Shown here: positions 1 through 37,761 of the stretch, piece after piece
How the letters are laid out: each line of letters begins with the position of its first letter
Numbering within the stretch: the stretch's first letter is position 1
Program-made: the position numbers and the translations under genes
The notes under the pieces: model-generated
Told to the model about the DNA's origin: nothing
Seen by the model: the letters and a program-made list of their open reading frames with translations, nothing else
Databases searched by the model: none
From: a virus
Lineage: Duplodnaviria > Heunggongvirae > Uroviricota > Caudoviricetes
Virus record (IMG/VR): IMGVR_UViG_2778261204_000005
Span: 1-38,769 of that record
DNA length: 38,769 nucleotides
Strand: one strand, 5' to 3'

Positions 1-1248
1 ATGGCACTGAATATTCCATTCAGAAATGCGTACTATCGTTTTGCATCCAGTTACTCATTTCTCTTTTTTATTTCCTGGTCGCTGTGGTGGTCGTTATACG
101 CTATTTGGCTGAAAGGACATCTAGGGTTGACAGGGACGGAATTAGGTACACTTTATTCGGTCAACCAGTTTACCAGCATTCTATTTATGATGTTCTACGG
201 CATCGTTCAGGATAAACTCGGTCTGAAGAAACCGCTCATCTGGTGTATGAGTTTCATCCTGGTCTTGACCGGACCGTTTATGATTTACGTTTATGAACCG
301 TTACTGCAAAGCAATTTTTCTGTAGGTCTAATTCTGGGGGCGCTATTTTTTGGCTTGGGGTATCTGGCGGGATGCGGTTTGCTTGATAGCTTCACCGAAA
401 AAATGGCGCGAAATTTTCATTTCGAATATGGAACAGCGCGCGCCTGGGGATCTTTTGGCTATGCTATTGGCGCGTTCTTTGCCGGCATATTTTTTAGTAT
501 CAGTCCCCATATCAACTTCTGGTTGGTCTCGCTATTTGGCGCTGTATTTATGATGATCAACATGCGTTTTAAAGATAAGGATCACCAGTGCGTAGCGGCA
601 GATGCGGGAGGGGTAAAAAAAGAGGATTTTATCGCAGTTTTCAAGGATCGAAACTTCTGGGTTTTCGTCATATTTATTGTGGGGACGTGGTCTTTCTATA
701 ACATTTTTGATCAACAACTTTTTCCTGTCTTTTATGCAGGTTTATTCGAATCACACGATGTAGGAACGCGCCTGTATGGTTATCTCAACTCATTCCAGGT
801 GGTACTCGAAGCGCTGTGCATGGCGATTATTCCTTTCTTTGTGAATCGGGTAGGGCCAAAAAATGCATTACTTATCGGAGTTGTGATTATGGCGTTGCGT
901 ATCCTTTCCTGCGCGCTGTTCGTTAACCCCTGGATTATTTCATTAGTGAAGTTGTTACATGCCATTGAGGTTCCACTTTGTGTCATATCCGTCTTCAAAT
1001 ACAGCGTGGCAAACTTTGATAAGCGCCTGTCGTCGACGATCTTTCTGATTGGTTTTCAAATTGCCAGTTCGCTTGGGATTGTGCTGCTTTCAACGCCGAC
1101 TGGGATACTCTTTGACCACGCAGGCTACCAGACAGTTTTCTTCGCAATTTCGGGTATTGTCTGCCTGATGTTGCTATTTGGCATTTTCTTCTTGAGTAAA
1201 AAACGCGAGCAAATAGTTATGGAAACGCCTGTACCTTCAGCAATATAG
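1..1248 (+). CDS. cscB: sucrose permease, LacY-family oligosaccharide:H+ symporter (MFS)
   Basis: 415-aa ORF with about 12 hydrophobic segments and LacY-type motifs; recognised as CscB-like, and csc genes are known to lie beside argW in sucrose-positive E. coli. Confidence 0.8.
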   Translation: MALNIPFRNAYYRFASSYSFLFFISWSLWWSLYAIWLKGHLGLTGTELGTLYSVNQFTSILFMMFYGIVQDKLGLKKPLIWCMSFILVLTGPFMIYVYEPLLQSNFSVGLILGALFFGLGYLAGCGLLDSFTEKMARNFHFEYGTARAWGSFGYAIGAFFAGIFFSISPHINFWLVSLFGAVFMMINMRFKDKDHQCVAADAGGVKKEDFIAVFKDRNFWVFVIFIVGTWSFYNIFDQQLFPVFYAGLFESHDVGTRLYGYLNSFQVVLEALCMAIIPFFVNRVGPKNALLIGVVIMALRILSCALFVNPWIISLVKLLHAIEVPLCVISVFKYSVANFDKRLSSTIFLIGFQIASSLGIVLLSTPTGILFDHAGYQTVFFAISGIVCLMLLFGIFFLSKKREQIVMETPVPSAI

Positions 1249-6284: not shown

Positions 6285-6417
6285 TTTTGGGGACTCCTGG
6301 CTGATTAAGTATATCGATAAGGCGTTTCCATCCGTCACGTAATTTACGGGTGATTCGTTCAAGTAAAGATTCGGAAGGGCAGCCAGCAACAGGCCACCCT
6401 GCAATGGCATATTGCAT
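6277..6417 (-). CDS. cIII: CIII, FtsH protease inhibitor, lambda-type
   Basis: Hand translation gives MQYAIAGWPVAGCPSESLLERITRKLRDGWKRLIDILNQPGVPKNG (46 aa), matching lambda CIII; AAGGAG RBS; overlaps kil start as in lambda; not in the supplied ORF track because under 60 aa. Confidence 0.75.
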   Translation of the reverse strand: MQYAIAGWPVAGCPSESLLERITRKLRDGWKRLIDILNQPGVPKNG

Positions 6418-6489
6418 GGTGTGCTCCTTATTTATACATAACGAAAAACGCCTCGAGTGAAGCGTTATTGGTATGCGGTAACGCCGCGC

Positions 6490-6858
6490 TCAGGCGGCTT
6501 TGATAGTCATATCATCTGAATCAAATATTCCTGATGTATCGATATCGGTAATTCTTATTCCTTCGCTACCATCCATTGGAGGCCATCCTTCCTGACCATT
6601 TCCATCATTCCAGTCGAACTCACACACAACACCATATGCATTTAAGTCGCTTGAAATTGCTATAAGCAGAGCATGTTGCGCCAGCATGATTAATACAGCA
6701 TTTAATACAGAGCCGTGTTTATTGAGTCGGTATTCAGAGTCTGACCAGAAATTATTAATCTGGTGAAGTTTTTCCTCTGTCATTACGTCATGGTCGATTT
6801 CAATTTCTATTGATGCTTTCCAGTCGTAATCAATGATGTATTTTTTGATGTTTGACAT
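6490..6858 (-). CDS. hypothetical acidic phage protein (possibly DUF2528-like)
   Basis: 122-aa ORF; family guess from memory only. Confidence 0.45.
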   Translation of the reverse strand: MSNIKKYIIDYDWKASIEIEIDHDVMTEEKLHQINNFWSDSEYRLNKHGSVLNAVLIMLAQHALLIAISSDLNAYGVVCEFDWNDGNGQEGWPPMDGSEGIRITDIDTSGIFDSDDMTIKAA

Positions 6859-7053: not shown

Positions 7054-7476
7054 TTACTTAACCAATGATGCCGCATATTCAATTAGGAATAACTTAGGTG
7101 CAAGCAAAATCTTCAACCATTCGAAATTGAAGGCGATAATTAAAACACCCATAATTGAGCCAAATATAGGAACAAATACAGTGCATATATCGTAATAAAC
7201 CGAAGATATAAAATGTCCATCATTTGGACGTCCATCGAAAGACGTCCATCTCTCGCCATTATTTCTTGCCGTTCTTGCAAAACTAGGAAGTTTAATTGCT
7301 GCAATTAAAAGCAACAATCCAGCCACTTGGAAAAGTGCGCTATGGACAAAACTCCATATTAGCAACTGATGAACAACATCAGGAATCTGTGCCTGGCTAA
7401 ATGAAACAGCCGCGTCTATTCCATTGCTGGCTTTTTGCAGTAGTTCTACGAGAATCTTGTTTGCTTGTTCTTCCAT
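7054..7476 (-). CDS. small inner-membrane protein, candidate superinfection-exclusion/abortive-infection factor (SieB-position)
   Basis: 140-aa ORF with 2-3 hydrophobic helices, AT-rich, 9 nt downstream of N. Confidence 0.5.
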   Translation of the reverse strand: MEEQANKILVELLQKASNGIDAAVSFSQAQIPDVVHQLLIWSFVHSALFQVAGLLLLIAAIKLPSFARTARNNGERWTSFDGRPNDGHFISSVYYDICTVFVPIFGSIMGVLIIAFNFEWLKILLAPKLFLIEYAASLVK

Positions 7477-7484
7477 ATATCACC

Positions 7485-7784
7485 TCAAATAAGTGGTTTG
7501 CTGCCTAATTTCATTTTCTGGCGCCCAACACAAGTCACACCCATTTCGCTGCGTGGCTTGCGGTAGTAAATACGGTTCTGTTTACGCTCGACTTCTTCTG
7601 CCTTCTTGCAGCGAAGGCTTCCGAGTGATGCTGCTTTATCTGCTCTGACGCAACCAGAGAGCTTTAGCGCAATTTTTCGCGCCAGTCGCTGTTCTTGCAT
7701 TGCCTGTTCACGTTGAGCCTGTCTGCGTGCTCTGCGGCGATTTCTGGCGTTATCGTCAGCCAGATATGTAATTACTACTGTCAT
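7485..7784 (-). CDS. N: antitermination protein N (arginine-rich motif)
   Basis: Start moved to internal ATG with GGAGG RBS; N-terminal NARNRRRARRQAQRE arginine-rich motif; C-terminal half recognised as similar to N of phage 21/933W-type. Confidence 0.7.
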   Translation of the reverse strand: MTVVITYLADDNARNRRRARRQAQREQAMQEQRLARKIALKLSGCVRADKAASLGSLRCKKAEEVERKQNRIYYRKPRSEMGVTCVGRQKMKLGSKPLI

Positions 7785-7839
7785 GTTGACCTCCGATGAA
7801 ACAACTTTGGAATTGATAGTGATTGCAAAGTGGTTTCTG

Positions 7840-7869
7840 GCCCCTCGAACTGAGGGGCAGAAAGAGCAT
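7840..7869 (-). promoter_or_regulatory. nut-like element: boxA-like ATGCTCTTTCT followed by 7-bp-stem hairpin GCCCCTC-AGTTC-GAGGGGC, about 55 nt upstream of N
   Basis: Read on minus strand; no U-run so not a terminator. Confidence 0.4.
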
Positions 7870-8345
7870 CTCGCCACCTAATAGGTCAATGCTCGGATCG
7901 AGAGATTTAATTAACCTCGGTTTTGAAGTTATGCATTCACATAAATCCTCCTGTTGCATGTGCAGCATTGGCTGTGTTTGGCGGCTGCATTTCGCCTATG
8001 GAATTGACTTTGGCGGTGACGCGCCGGGTGCTTATCTTCCGGTTGCCGTCGTGCAGCTGCACTTCACGTCACCCCAAAGCCAACTACTCTTTGACTCACA
8101 CTCTCGCAGTGAGCGCGCCCATGCCATTGAGTCTCTGCCGCTTCATCGCCGCTGATAACCGGTGCGCGTCTGGCATTCGTGCTGCTTTACCGGAGCTACT
8201 TTTAATATATTGACCTTAACCCGATGCTAAGCAGGCTCGCTCAATGACGACTCAGGGCAGTATCATTACTGCTGCATTGCCTTTCGGCTGCGGTCTAACC
8301 GCGTTAGTGCACCATTACGGCACCTCCTGTTTGGTTAAACTCAGT

Positions 8346-8387
8346 TCCCGCATTTCGGCGGGACAATCCCATCAATGTTAAAGAGCC
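8346..8387 (-). promoter_or_regulatory. nutL: boxA (GGCTCTTTAA) and boxB hairpin (TCCCGC-CGAAAT-GCGGGA)
   Basis: boxB is the same 18 nt as at nutR. Confidence 0.65.
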
Positions 8388-8436
8388 TGCCAATCTGTTC
8401 CGTTTGGCTACCAGCGTCCTGCTGATGGCTTAAAGA

Positions 8437-8519
8437 TAACTTAGGTTATAGGTGCGGTCAATAACCTAATTTATATTTTATGGTAAATAAGTTATAAGTG
8501 ATGGATAACAAAGGTATTT
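8437..8519. promoter_or_regulatory. OL/PL region with three ATAAC-N4-GTTAT-type operator sites
   Basis: One perfect site ATAACTTAGGTTAT and two variants at about 25-bp and 44-bp spacing. Confidence 0.6.
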
Positions 8520-8644
8520 TATTTTTGTAAATGTTGCTGATTGATTGGTGTTTGAGGGCTTACGTGCGGGGTGAAGGTGTTACCTTTGGCTTGATGCTTG
8601 TCTATGATGAGGATGGTTGATTGGGTGGTGAACGGCAGGAAAAG

Positions 8645-8672
8645 AAAACCCGGCGCTGAGGCCGGGTGTTTT
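8645..8672. terminator. bidirectional rho-independent terminator (CCCGGC-GCTGAG-GCCGGG flanked by U/A runs)
   Basis: Ends the cI-orf98 transcript (minus strand) and insulates from plus-strand read-in. Confidence 0.6.
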
Positions 8673-8968
8673 TAGTCTTTTCTTTTGCTTAGCATTTCGT
8701 CGATTTCTAAGTCAATACGATATTGATCTATTGCTTTTCTCTCGTTTGGGGTTGGTATTTTATACTGTTCAATTAGATCTGTTGTGTATTTTATTTCATC
8801 TAATGTGATTTTTATATCAGAGAGAATCTCTTTTATATCAATTAGATGCTCTTCTTCTTTTGCGCGATTAGAGCTATGTTCAATCATTTGAGATAGCTTT
8901 TTGCTAATGCTTAGCAAAACAAAAAGAATGATGACCAAAACAACAACAAAAACTATCAGAAATTCCAT
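8672..8968 (-). CDS. AT-rich single-pass membrane protein co-transcribed with cI (rex-position moron)
   Basis: 98-aa ORF with N-terminal hydrophobic helix and charged coiled-coil-like tail; 40 bp downstream of cI. Confidence 0.55.
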   Translation of the reverse strand: MEFLIVFVVVLVIILFVLLSISKKLSQMIEHSSNRAKEEEHLIDIKEILSDIKITLDEIKYTTDLIEQYKIPTPNERKAIDQYRIDLEIDEMLSKRKD

Positions 8969-9008
8969 TATCCCTCCGCACTTCCGTAAGTCTTCTTCTG
9001 ATTATCGG

Positions 9009-9716
9009 TTACCAACTATGAGACGACCAGAATACTCTGCCAATAATCCTTACGGTTTCATGAAATTCATCTCTATCCATTACTTCATCCGGGTACTCTT
9101 CGCGATTTATTGATCTGATTATCACCGATGTAGGGGTGGCGATTAATGTTTTTACTCGTAACAAATCAGACTGGCAAATAGCGTAGGTTTTACCATCTCT
9201 GATTGTGGTATCTTGCGTGTTAACACCAACAACATCGCCATCGTGAAGCGTTGGTTCCATGCTTTGCCCTACAACCCTAACTAGCTTGGCTGATCTTTCT
9301 GATACTCCCATCTTTTTCAGATAGTGCTTTCTGAAAACCAAAGAGAACTCCGATGATTCCTCTAGCTCGCAGCTACCGCTTCCAGCTGAAAGCGAAACGT
9401 TAAGAAGAGGCAACGCAACAAACTCGTCATCGTTTCTTTTAATGTCTTCCCATACCACAGCTTTTAAAGATGACTCACGGACATTGGATGGTTCTTCATG
9501 TGCACCATCCCTCATTTCACCAATACCAGAACTAAGCCATTCAGGACGCACTTTTAAAGCATTGGCTAATTCAACCATCTTGCGAGATCCGTTTGTTTTA
9601 CCGGACGACATCTTCTGTATGGCTGGCTGAGATATTCCAACCATGTCAGCAAGCTGTGATTGTGATACCCCTGCTGAGCTCATGGCTGCATTTAGTCTTT
9701 CTGCGAATGTTTTCAT
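9009..9716 (-). CDS. cI: CI-type prophage repressor (HTH plus LexA-like S24 peptidase domain)
   Basis: HTH (QSQLADMVGISQPAIQKM) and S24 motif GQSMEPTL with downstream Lys; start set at ATG MKTFAERL; the track ORF extends to 9746 from a non-ATG start. Confidence 0.8.
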   Translation of the reverse strand: MKTFAERLNAAMSSAGVSQSQLADMVGISQPAIQKMSSGKTNGSRKMVELANALKVRPEWLSSGIGEMRDGAHEEPSNVRESSLKAVVWEDIKRNDDEFVALPLLNVSLSAGSGSCELEESSEFSLVFRKHYLKKMGVSERSAKLVRVVGQSMEPTLHDGDVVGVNTQDTTIRDGKTYAICQSDLLRVKTLIATPTSVIIRSINREEYPDEVMDRDEFHETVRIIGRVFWSSHSW

Positions 9717-9728
9717 ACCCACAAATCT

Positions 9729-9791
9729 ATAACTACGGTTATCCAAAGTAAAATAACAAAGGTTATTGCTATTTTTTATAACTTGAGTTAT
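9729..9791. promoter_or_regulatory. OR operators (three 14-bp ATAAC-N4-GTTAT sites at ~24-25-bp spacing) with divergent PRM/PR
   Basis: ATAACTACGGTTAT, ATAACAAAGGTTAT, ATAACTTGAGTTAT between cI and cro. Confidence 0.7.
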
Positions 9792-9827
9792 CTTTGGTTA
9801 TAAGTAATGACCACAAGAGGTATGCTC

Positions 9828-37686: not shown

Positions 37687-37761
37687 TGGTGTCCCCTGCA
37701 GGAATCGAACCTGCAATTAGCCCTTAGGAGGGGCTCGTTATATCCATTTAACTAAGAGGAC
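37687..37761 (-). tRNA. argW: tRNA-Arg (anticodon CCU), argW-type; its 3' end is attR
   Basis: 75-nt cloverleaf read on minus strand: acceptor stem GTCCTCT/AGGGGAC, anticodon loop CT-CCT-AA, T-arm GGTTCGATTCC, 3' ACCA. Confidence 0.9.

What the first reader, a model, noticed from the sequence alone, without database searches (positions are those of the whole stretch)
8645..8968. AT-rich 98-aa membrane ORF co-transcribed with the cI repressor (rex-position cargo gene)
The 98-aa ORF at 8672..8968 lies 40 bp downstream of cI on the same strand and is closed by a bidirectional terminator, so it should be expressed from PRM in the lysogen. It has one N-terminal transmembrane helix and a highly charged tail, and is markedly more AT-rich than the flanking phage DNA. 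In lambda this slot holds rexAB, so it is a classic place for prophage-encoded exclusion or abortive-infection functions. I do not recognise the protein.
Basis: partly seen in the sequence, partly recalled or inferred. Interest (0 to 1): 0.65.

Follow-up and report, generated by a model that had tools for sequence, protein, structure and literature searches.

The report
Small membrane gene riding behind cI
A real, conserved 98-residue inner-membrane protein gene of unknown function sits directly behind the prophage repressor gene, where lambda keeps rexAB; it is a credible but untested candidate for blocking other phages.

Summary
A 98-codon ORF (8672..8968, minus strand) starts 40 nt after the cI stop, has a GGAGG ribosome-binding site and no intervening terminator. 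It ends 4 nt before a symmetrical terminator hairpin (8648-8667). At 30.3% GC it is the most AT-rich 297-bp stretch of the window.

It lies between cI and OL/PL, the slot that holds rexAB in lambda. The gene is under purifying selection (dN/dS 0.17; 0.07 in the C-terminal part).

It belongs to a very small family (phrog_18389; about 14 clusters at 50% identity in 1.8 billion proteins). Nothing matches in Pfam, NCBIfam, PADLOC, PDB or BFVD.

The new result is positional. In 8 of 12 readable contexts the gene sits 0-54 nt after an S24-type repressor, although those repressors are only 18-38% identical to the window's. A 93%-identical (DNA) cI carries different cargo instead.

The predicted form is N-out/C-in: one transmembrane helix, a long cytoplasmic stalk, an invariant Y-K-[LI]-P turn and a return helix. 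This is the same build as the unrelated HK97 gp15 exclusion protein.

Expression in lysogens and any anti-phage function are inferred, not shown. It is a new member of a known kind, of moderate interest.

The parts
8672..8968 (-). orf98: 98-aa protein. It has a transmembrane helix (about residues 3-21), a cytoplasmic stalk helix, the Y69-K-I-P72 turn and a C-terminal helix (74-97). It matches phrog_18389.
8969..9008 (-). 40-nt cI-orf98 spacer. GGAGG lies at 8973-8977, 4 nt before the ATG. No terminator-like hairpin is present.
9009..9746 (-). cI repressor ORF (HTH_3 plus Peptidase_S24). The start is probably the ATG at 9716, giving 235 aa.
8637..8676 (.). Symmetrical intrinsic terminator: stem 8648-8667, A-tract on one side and T-tract on the other. 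It closes the cI-orf98 unit and shields OL/PL and N from read-through.
   Evidence: (I13)
8432..8520 (.). OL operator cluster (ATAAC-N-GGTTAT repeats shared with OR). It overlaps a PL-like promoter (-35 at 8461-8456, -10 at 8438-8433, minus strand).
   Evidence: D1-D3, I2, I4, I5, I7
9727..9808 (.). OR operator cluster between cI and cro. This is the presumed PRM/PR region from which cI-orf98 would be transcribed.
8906..8924 (-). 5' arm (ORF nt 45-63) of a 19-nt long-range complementarity inside the orf98 mRNA.
   Evidence: (I3)
8678..8696 (-). 3' arm (ORF nt 273-291) of the same complementarity. It is 17/19 paired and is kept in the Citrobacter homologue through two compensatory double changes.
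   Evidence: (I3)

Best explanation
orf98 is a genuine accessory ('moron') gene fixed in the cI-OL slot of one lambdoid immunity module.

**Proposed mechanism:**
1. Inferred: it is transcribed as the distal gene of the cI message (PRM in the lysogen, PRE during establishment). It is translated from its own GGAGG site, and the message ends at the hairpin at 8648-8667.
2. Inferred from sequence rules: the product inserts in the inner membrane with a 2-residue N-terminus outside and about 75 residues inside. Those residues form a long stalk helix continuous with the transmembrane helix, an invariant Y-K-[LI]-P turn, and a return helix carrying ER..ID..R.D.EID.
3. Inferred from position, architecture and precedent: it has no enzymatic domain and no partner gene. 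It therefore most likely acts by binding at the cytoplasmic face of the membrane. There it would protect the lysogen from superinfecting phages at or just after genome entry, as the unrelated but similarly built HK97 gp15 does.

**Shown here:**
- the gene's anatomy;
- purifying selection;
- the family and its conserved motif;
- its obligate position behind diverse repressors.

**Not shown:** transcription, topology and phenotype.
For: **Anatomy**
- ORF, ribosome-binding site, 40-nt gap, no internal terminator, terminal hairpin.
- Placement between cI and OL, as for lambda rexAB.

**Selection**
- dN/dS is 0.17 overall and 0.07 for codons 44-98.

**Position**
- An S24-type repressor lies directly upstream in the window and seven other lineages: the Citrobacter homologue at 77% identity and six at 35-46%.
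- Gaps are 40, 15, 12, 23, 1, 0, 54 and 24 nt.
- The repressors are only 18-38% identical to the window's, and their similarities do not track those of orf98. Window against L037 gives cI 22% and orf98 77%. L042 against L049 gives cI 72% and orf98 33%.

**The slot exchanges cargo**
- A cI that is 93% identical in DNA (SH2026Stx1) carries a DUF3024 gene plus another gene instead.
- A 79%-identical cI (PA28) carries no orf98.
- HK140 carries a 122-aa gene there.

**Linkage in E. coli**
- 106 complete genomes hold this cI at 95% identity or more, and 106 hold the orf98 region at 95% or more.

**Topology**
- 0 K/R before the transmembrane helix in 17 of 17 members, and 1-4 K/R within 15 residues after it.

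**Fold**
- Helices only, mean pLDDT 80-81.

**Precedents**
- cI-bstA is one operon from a single start site (PMC7067206).
- The cI-N interval is a recognised mosaic hotspot that holds rexAB and bstA (PMC8585504).
- HK97 gp15 is a small inner-membrane exclusion protein encoded by a moron (PMC3594210). Its sequence shows the same ME-transmembrane helix-basic flank-charged helix build.
- A 7.9-kDa exclusion protein is co-transcribed with the repressor of Pseudomonas phage Fc02 (PMC9936078).
Against: - No expression or phenotype data exist.
- There is no homology to any known exclusion or defence protein in PHROGs, PADLOC, Pfam, NCBIfam, PDB or BFVD.
- The bulk of the protein is predicted to be cytoplasmic, whereas several injection blockers work from the periplasmic side.
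- The family is rare: 2% of complete E. coli genomes and about 14 clusters worldwide. It therefore gives no broad or indispensable advantage.
- The four most divergent members (26-35% identity) are not next to a repressor.
- Position in a hotspot is compatible with non-defence cargo.
Confidence: 0.4

Rival explanations
1. Abortive-infection effector. The protein sits inert in the membrane and, when triggered by an infecting phage, oligomerises through its helices. It then depolarises or permeabilises the membrane and kills the cell before phage release (RexB-like or holin-like logic).
For: - It occupies the slot of the two known abortive-infection systems, rexAB and bstA (PMC8585504).
- It is small, with one transmembrane helix and a highly charged C-terminal tail, the generic holin build.
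- Its composition resembles designed coiled coils, which suggests self-association.
Against: - There is no sensor partner gene in the unit.
- The transmembrane helix has no polar or charged residue that could line a pore.
- A lone constitutive pore-former made with cI would need a control that is not visible in the sequence.
- There is no similarity to RexB (hhalign probability 0.8%) or to any PADLOC effector.
Confidence: 0.2
2. An accessory gene that is not for defence. A lysogeny-expressed membrane protein would tune host or prophage physiology. Possible targets are a membrane protease such as FtsH, cell division, envelope stress, or the induction threshold.
For: - Prophage genes expressed in lysogeny also include non-defence functions such as lom and bor (PMC7067206, PMC3594210).
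- A cytoplasmic, membrane-tethered helical domain suits docking onto host membrane complexes.
- The distant members sit outside prophage immunity regions: next to a sigma-54 activator, a SHOCT-domain protein, or an integrase.
Against: - The gene is not tied to a particular repressor, and close cI relatives do without it. It is therefore not part of the switch itself.
- No similarity to CIII, Kil or any known host-modulating family was found.
Confidence: 0.2
3. Not a functional protein. The stretch would be an AT-rich 3' untranslated region of the cI message with a chance ORF, or a decaying remnant. Any role would be at the RNA level, for example mRNA stability through the 19-nt 5'-3' stem.
For: - The 401-nt stretch folds better than shuffles (z = -3.3).
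- A 19-nt internal complementarity is kept between E. coli and Citrobacter by two compensatory double changes.
Against: - dN/dS is 0.17, and 0.07 in the C-terminal part.
- The protein-level motif is conserved down to 26-35% identity while the DNA has diverged.
- There is a strong GGAGG site.
- Gaps of 0-1 nt to cI in two lineages suggest translational coupling.
- The RNA stem is absent from the six more distant homologues.
Confidence: 0.03

Closest known systems
HK97 gp15 (moron-encoded superinfection exclusion protein; YebO-like)
   Same: - It is a small prophage-expressed protein of a lambdoid coliphage, encoded by an inserted, compositionally distinct unit with its own terminator.
- Its sequence has the same build: Met-Glu, one hydrophobic helix, a basic flank, then a charged helical tail.
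- It inserts in the inner membrane and blocks genome entry without an enzymatic domain (PMC3594210).
   Different: - No sequence relationship (hhalign probability 1.7%).
- gp15 is 62 aa and sits in the tail operon with its own promoter. orf98 is 98 aa, has an extra turn-plus-helix with a conserved motif, and sits behind cI without a recognisable promoter of its own.
Lambda rexAB
   Same: - Same genomic slot and strand: between cI and OL, ahead of a terminator.
- Expressed with cI in lysogens (PMC7067206).
- RexB is an inner-membrane protein.
   Different: - rexAB is a two-gene system of 279 and 144 aa, and RexB is multi-spanning.
- orf98 is a single gene with one transmembrane helix.
- No similarity was found (hhalign probability 0.8%).
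BstA of Salmonella prophage BTP1
   Same: It is a single gene directly downstream of cI, transcribed from the cI promoter, with this position conserved across homologues (PMC8585504, PMC7067206).
   Different: BstA is a larger protein that localises to sites of phage DNA replication (PMC8585504). It is not described there as a membrane protein. orf98 matches no Pfam domain and no PADLOC model.
7.9-kDa exclusion protein co-transcribed with the repressor of Pseudomonas phage Fc02
   Same: It is a small protein on the repressor transcript that excludes superinfecting phages (PMC9936078).
   Different: It lies upstream of the repressor, in an overlapping-gene arrangement, in an unrelated phage group (beetreviruses). 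No sequence comparison was made here.

Membership tests
phrog_18389 (PHROGs family of unknown function) | Full-length match to the family profile | tested here: met
   E = 5.2e-62, residues 1-98 against profile positions 1-98 of 98
cI-downstream accessory gene of lambdoid prophages (rex-slot moron) | Lies between the cI stop and OL/PL, on the cI strand | tested here: met
   cI is at 9009-9746, orf98 at 8672-8968 and the OL repeats at 8432-8520. Lambda has the same layout.
cI-downstream accessory gene of lambdoid prophages (rex-slot moron) | No terminator between cI and the cargo; a terminator after it | tested here: met
   No terminator-like site lies in 8969-9008. The hairpin at 8648-8667 is followed by a T-tract.
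cI-downstream accessory gene of lambdoid prophages (rex-slot moron) | Base composition unlike the surrounding phage DNA, and presence or absence varying among related phages | tested here: met
   GC is 30.3% against 47.8% for the window. cI alleles that are 93% and 79% identical carry other cargo or none.
cI-downstream accessory gene of lambdoid prophages (rex-slot moron) | Transcribed in the lysogen | not testable with these tools
   No transcript data are available here. The precedent is the cI-bstA operon (PMC7067206).
RexAB | Homology to RexB, and a RexA partner gene | tested here: not met
   hhalign probability is 0.8% against lambda RexB. orf98 is the only ORF of 30 aa or more on the cI strand between cI and OL.
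HK97 gp15 / YebO | Sequence homology | tested here: not met
   hhalign probability is 1.7%. No YebO family appears among the Pfam hits.
HK97 gp15 / YebO | Phage exclusion phenotype at genome entry | not testable with these tools
   This needs plating and DNA-entry assays.
Holins | Small membrane protein with a charged C-terminus, encoded in the lysis cassette next to an endolysin | tested here: not met
   The architecture is compatible, but the neighbours are cI and OL. In a prophage with the identical module the holin and endolysin lie about 9 kb away. No holin family appears in Pfam or PHROGs.
MotB / ZorB stator-like anchors | Significant profile match, and the conserved acidic residue within the transmembrane helix | tested here: not met
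   Only weak matches were found (E = 0.009 for the window protein, best 2.4e-4 in 2 of 17 members). The transmembrane segment of the window protein, residues 3-21, has no charged residue.
YmfJ (gene behind the cI-like repressor YmfK of prophage e14) | Sequence homology | tested here: not met
   hhalign probability is 0.1%, and YmfJ has no transmembrane helix.

The most novel reading that the evidence does not exclude
The family is a new, self-contained, one-protein anti-phage system that works from the inner face of the membrane. Its invariant Y-K-[LI]-P helical hairpin would recognise a conserved component of the genome-entry machinery, either a tape-measure or ejection protein or the host channel it uses. 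The gene's obligate coupling to the repressor transcript, sometimes with a 0-1 nt gap, would set its dose to the lysogenic state. A further twist that is not excluded is that the 19-nt 5'-3' stem in the mRNA throttles its translation.
Probability: 0.12. Interest if true: 0.65.

Novelty: new member of a known kind. Interest (0 to 1): 0.4.

Why it matters
- **A well-defined candidate.** The interval between cI and OL is a recognised depot for prophage-encoded protection systems, yet most of its cargo is unnamed. This work turns one anonymous ORF into a defined family. The family has a conserved motif, a predicted topology and an unusually strict positional rule: it sits directly behind otherwise unrelated repressors. 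That makes it a cheap and well-posed candidate for a phage-challenge experiment.
- **Medical relevance.** The gene is carried by prophages of O26:H11 strains and by an Stx1a-converting phage. Any exclusion activity would affect which Stx phages can enter these lineages.
- **If it is not defence.** It would then be a rare example of a membrane protein whose dose is tied to the lysogenic switch.

Tried and rejected
**Searches for a known family (none found)**
- Pfam, NCBIfam and PADLOC gave only sub-threshold hits driven by the transmembrane helix or coiled-coil composition: DUF5385, DUF4446, DUF948, MscL, ZorB/MotB.
- A PDB profile search matched only designed coiled coils.

**Fold searches with the two AlphaFold models**
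- BFVD gave 0 hits.
- PDB Foldseek gave one hit at E = 8.
- The afdb50 library was not available.

**Specific candidates rejected by profile comparison**
- YmfJ of e14, which occupies the same position behind a cI-like gene.
- Lambda RexB.
- HK97 gp15.

**Attempts to find more homologues**
- Two scans of species-representative genomes found none.
- IMG/VR and the metagenome scan returned only the E. coli type. Intermediate sequences to test the mRNA stem could therefore not be obtained.
- The IMG/VR hit L034 (46% identity over 47 residues) has no matching ORF and was dropped as spurious.

**Other checks**
- An internal promoter for orf98 inside the 3' end of cI (TTGGCA-17-CATAGT, 9043..9015) is no better than chance: 3 sites were found against 4.3 expected.
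- Rfam has nothing significant in 7750-9050.
- The G-rich spacer does not fold notably as RNA on the plus strand (z = -1.8).
- No paper mentions the protein accessions or the PHROG.
- Brenes and Laub 2025, on E. coli prophage defence systems, could not be read. I cannot exclude that this protein was tested there.

Full report
**1. The observation**

The window is an E. coli chromosomal stretch carrying a lambdoid prophage. cscB lies at the left end and tRNA-Arg(CCU) at 37687-37761.

On the minus strand the order is cro/OR, cI, orf98, terminator, OL/PL, nutL, N.
- cI occupies 9009..9746 and has HTH_3 plus Peptidase_S24.
- orf98 occupies 8672..8968. Its ATG is 40 nt after the cI stop, and GGAGG lies 4 nt before the ATG.
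- No terminator-like hairpin lies in the gap.
- Four nt after the stop codon a hairpin of 7 pairs (6 G-C) at 8648-8667, flanked by A- and T-tracts, scores as a terminator on both strands.
- Operator-like repeats of the form ATAAC-N-GGTTAT occur at 8432-8520 and again at 9727-9808. A PL-like promoter (TTGACC-17-TATCTT) at 8461..8433 points leftwards.

So orf98 sits inside the immunity region exactly where lambda has rexA-rexB.

The ORF is 30.3% GC. This is the lowest 297-bp window of the whole 38.8 kb (mean 47.8%, sd 3.9%).

**2. It is a real gene**

A Citrobacter freundii homologue is 77% identical in protein and 80% in DNA. Against it, dN/dS is 0.17 overall: 0.07 for codons 44-98, 0.26 for the linker and 0.37 for the transmembrane part. 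The other five frames hold 2-13 stop codons.

**3. The family**

The protein matches phrog_18389 (function unknown) end to end, with E = 5e-62. Nothing else matches in Pfam, NCBIfam or PADLOC.

The family is very small:
- a word-indexed search of 5.8 billion proteins found 11 clusters, all from E. coli or Citrobacter and all named 'hypothetical protein';
- an exhaustive HMMER profile search of 1.84 billion cluster representatives found 14 at E ≤ 1e-3.

The alignment shows three parts:
- a hydrophobic N-terminal helix;
- a variable linker;
- a conserved C-terminal block, IKYTTDxIEKYK[LI]Pxx(x)ERxxIDxIRIDxEID, in which Y69, P72, D81 and E88 are invariant.

AlphaFold gives only helices at mean pLDDT 80-81.
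- With the deeper alignment there is one continuous helix 2-68, a turn at 69-73 and a helix 74-97.
- pTM is low (about 0.3), so how the helices pack is not established.

In all 17 aligned members there is no Lys or Arg before the hydrophobic helix, and 1-4 occur within the next 15 residues. By the positive-inside rule the N-terminus is outside and the charged domain is cytoplasmic. This is a prediction.

**4. Where the gene lives**

*Within E. coli.* In 31 IMG/VR viral contigs and in E. coli chromosomes, the block cro-OR-cI-orf98-terminator-spacer-OL is 95-100% identical, while the flanks (PL leader, N) vary. It behaves as one immunity cassette in mosaic phages.
- Among 5,426 complete E. coli genomes, 106 have this cI at 95% identity or more, and 106 have the orf98 region at 95% or more.
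- Carriers include O26:H11 strains 11368 and H19 and the Stx1a-converting phage Stx1a_10051.

*Beyond E. coli.* Eight lineages have an S24-type repressor directly upstream on the same strand. They are the window, the Citrobacter homologue at 77% identity, and six homologues at 35-46% identity.
- The gaps are 40, 15, 12, 23, 1, 0, 54 and 24 nt.
- An N-type antiterminator follows wherever the contig extends far enough and Pfam recognises it.
- These repressors are only 18-38% identical to the window's, and their similarities do not track those of orf98. Window against L037 gives cI 22% and orf98 77%. L042 against L049 gives cI 72% and orf98 33%.

*The slot carries other cargo too.*
- A cI that is 93% identical in DNA (phage SH2026Stx1) is followed by a DUF3024 gene and another gene.
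- A 79%-identical cI (PA28) is followed by no gene on the cI strand.
- HK140 has a 122-aa gene in this position.

The gene is therefore exchangeable cargo, not a partner of a particular repressor. What is conserved is its place at the 3' end of the repressor gene.

*Exceptions.* The four most divergent members (26-35% identity) lie elsewhere: after a sigma-54 activator, after a SHOCT-domain protein, after an unknown gene, and near an integrase.

**5. How it probably works**

Shown: anatomy, selection, family, motif and position.

Inferred:
- *Co-transcription with cI.* There is no terminator in between, and the gaps shrink to 0-1 nt in two lineages. In prophage BTP1, cI-bstA is one operon from a single start site across an 88-bp gap (PMC7067206).
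- *A cytoplasmic, membrane-tethered helical domain.* This follows from the charge distribution.
- *A binding rather than catalytic action.* There is no domain, no partner gene and only 98 residues.

The cI-N interval is a recognised mosaic hotspot that houses rexAB and bstA (PMC8585504). Small membrane proteins expressed from prophages are known to block genome entry. HK97 gp15, whose 62-residue sequence has the same ME-transmembrane helix-basic flank-charged helix build, is the clearest example (PMC3594210). A 7.9-kDa exclusion protein is co-transcribed with the repressor of phage Fc02 (PMC9936078).

I therefore commit to superinfection exclusion at or just after genome entry, acting from the inner face of the membrane, with confidence about 0.4. 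The rivals are:
- a trigger-dependent membrane-damaging abortive-infection effector (0.2);
- a non-defence modulator of host or prophage physiology (0.2);
- a non-functional ORF or a purely RNA-level element (0.03; contradicted by dN/dS and by protein-level motif conservation).

**6. Comparison with known systems**

By position the gene is a rex-slot moron, and every testable defining feature is met. By family it is not RexB, BstA, gp15/YebO, a holin, MotB/ZorB or YmfJ; each was tested and not met. It plausibly works like gp15, but it is not a member of that family.

**7. An unexplained detail**

ORF nt 45-63 (window 8906-8924) and nt 273-291 (window 8678-8696) are 17/19 complementary (pair I3).
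- The Citrobacter homologue keeps 17/19 through two compensatory double substitutions. These change amino acids on both sides: F16L, and R96S with K97R.
- The duplex energy is 3.6-3.8 sd better than mononucleotide shuffles in these two lineages, but not in the six more distant homologues.
- The K95N alleles seen in E. coli break one pair.

It may be a lineage-specific stem in the mRNA. Its meaning is open.

**8. Novelty and score**

No publication or database names this protein. One relevant paper (Brenes and Laub 2025) could not be read.

The kind of element is well known: a lysogeny-linked accessory gene in the cI-N hotspot. The family is new to description, and its positional rule is notable. 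I rate it a new member of a known kind, with interest 0.4. It is a good experimental candidate, but a specialist would not be surprised by it.

Noticed in passing
window 8678-8696 and 8906-8924 (minus-strand mRNA of orf98): A 19-nt complementarity (17/19) links the 5' and 3' parts of the ORF. The Citrobacter homologue (L037/L038) preserves it through two compensatory double substitutions that change amino acids. The duplex z-score is about -3.7 in these two lineages, and the feature is absent from more distant homologues.
   Followed up: partly
window 8521-8639 (between OL and the terminator); compare L036 3082-3348 (+) and L037 6324-6548 (-): The window has a 119-bp G-rich spacer (positive GC skew) here, with only a 29-aa plus-strand ORF (8531-8620). 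At the same place, phage PA28 and the Citrobacter prophage carry a small gene convergent with cI (phrog_3946 and phrog_3975, 74-88 aa). That gene ends at the same bidirectional terminator and is unannotated in PA28. This may explain why the terminator works in both directions. The spacer shows no detectable similarity to those genes.
   Followed up: partly
window 7880-8345 (minus strand, between nutL and N): The PL leader is unusually long: about 560 nt without a convincing ORF, 52-59% GC, lying between the boxA-like site (about 8375-8386) and the N start (about 7785). Parts of it are 90-98% identical in mEp213, Stx2c phages, CUS-3 (where it is annotated 'boundary sequence bsq5') and HK140. 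A related stretch occurs in the Citrobacter prophage. Rfam has no match.
   Followed up: partly
window 7054-7476 (-): A 140-aa protein with several hydrophobic segments lies directly downstream of N in the PL operon. It matches phrog_3054 (function unknown) and has no Pfam, NCBIfam or PADLOC hit. It is near where lambda and P22 encode SieB, so it could be a second membrane accessory protein.
   Followed up: no
L035 2401-3465 (SH2026Stx1) and L055 2056-2424 (HK140): Other lambdoid phages carry different unnamed cargo in the same cI-OL slot. SH2026Stx1 has a DUF3024 protein (phrog_3467) plus a 177-aa protein (phrog_2602) behind a cI that is 93% identical in DNA. HK140 has a 122-aa hypothetical protein behind its cI.
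   Followed up: partly
window 6372-6430 (-): An Rfam match to the lambda cIII thermoregulator element (RF01804, 88.5 bits) lies upstream of a cIII-like ORF. This confirms a lambda-type PL operon.
   Followed up: no
window 1-1248 and 37687-37761: The window starts with a 415-codon ORF at 1-1248 (a sucrose/oligosaccharide MFS transporter in the matching E. coli records) and ends near tRNA-Arg(CCU). The prophage therefore appears to be integrated beside that tRNA gene next to the csc sucrose locus.
   Followed up: no
window 6490-6858 (-): A DUF2528 protein (phrog_646, function unknown) is encoded in the PL operon. It is conserved but uncharacterised.
   Followed up: no
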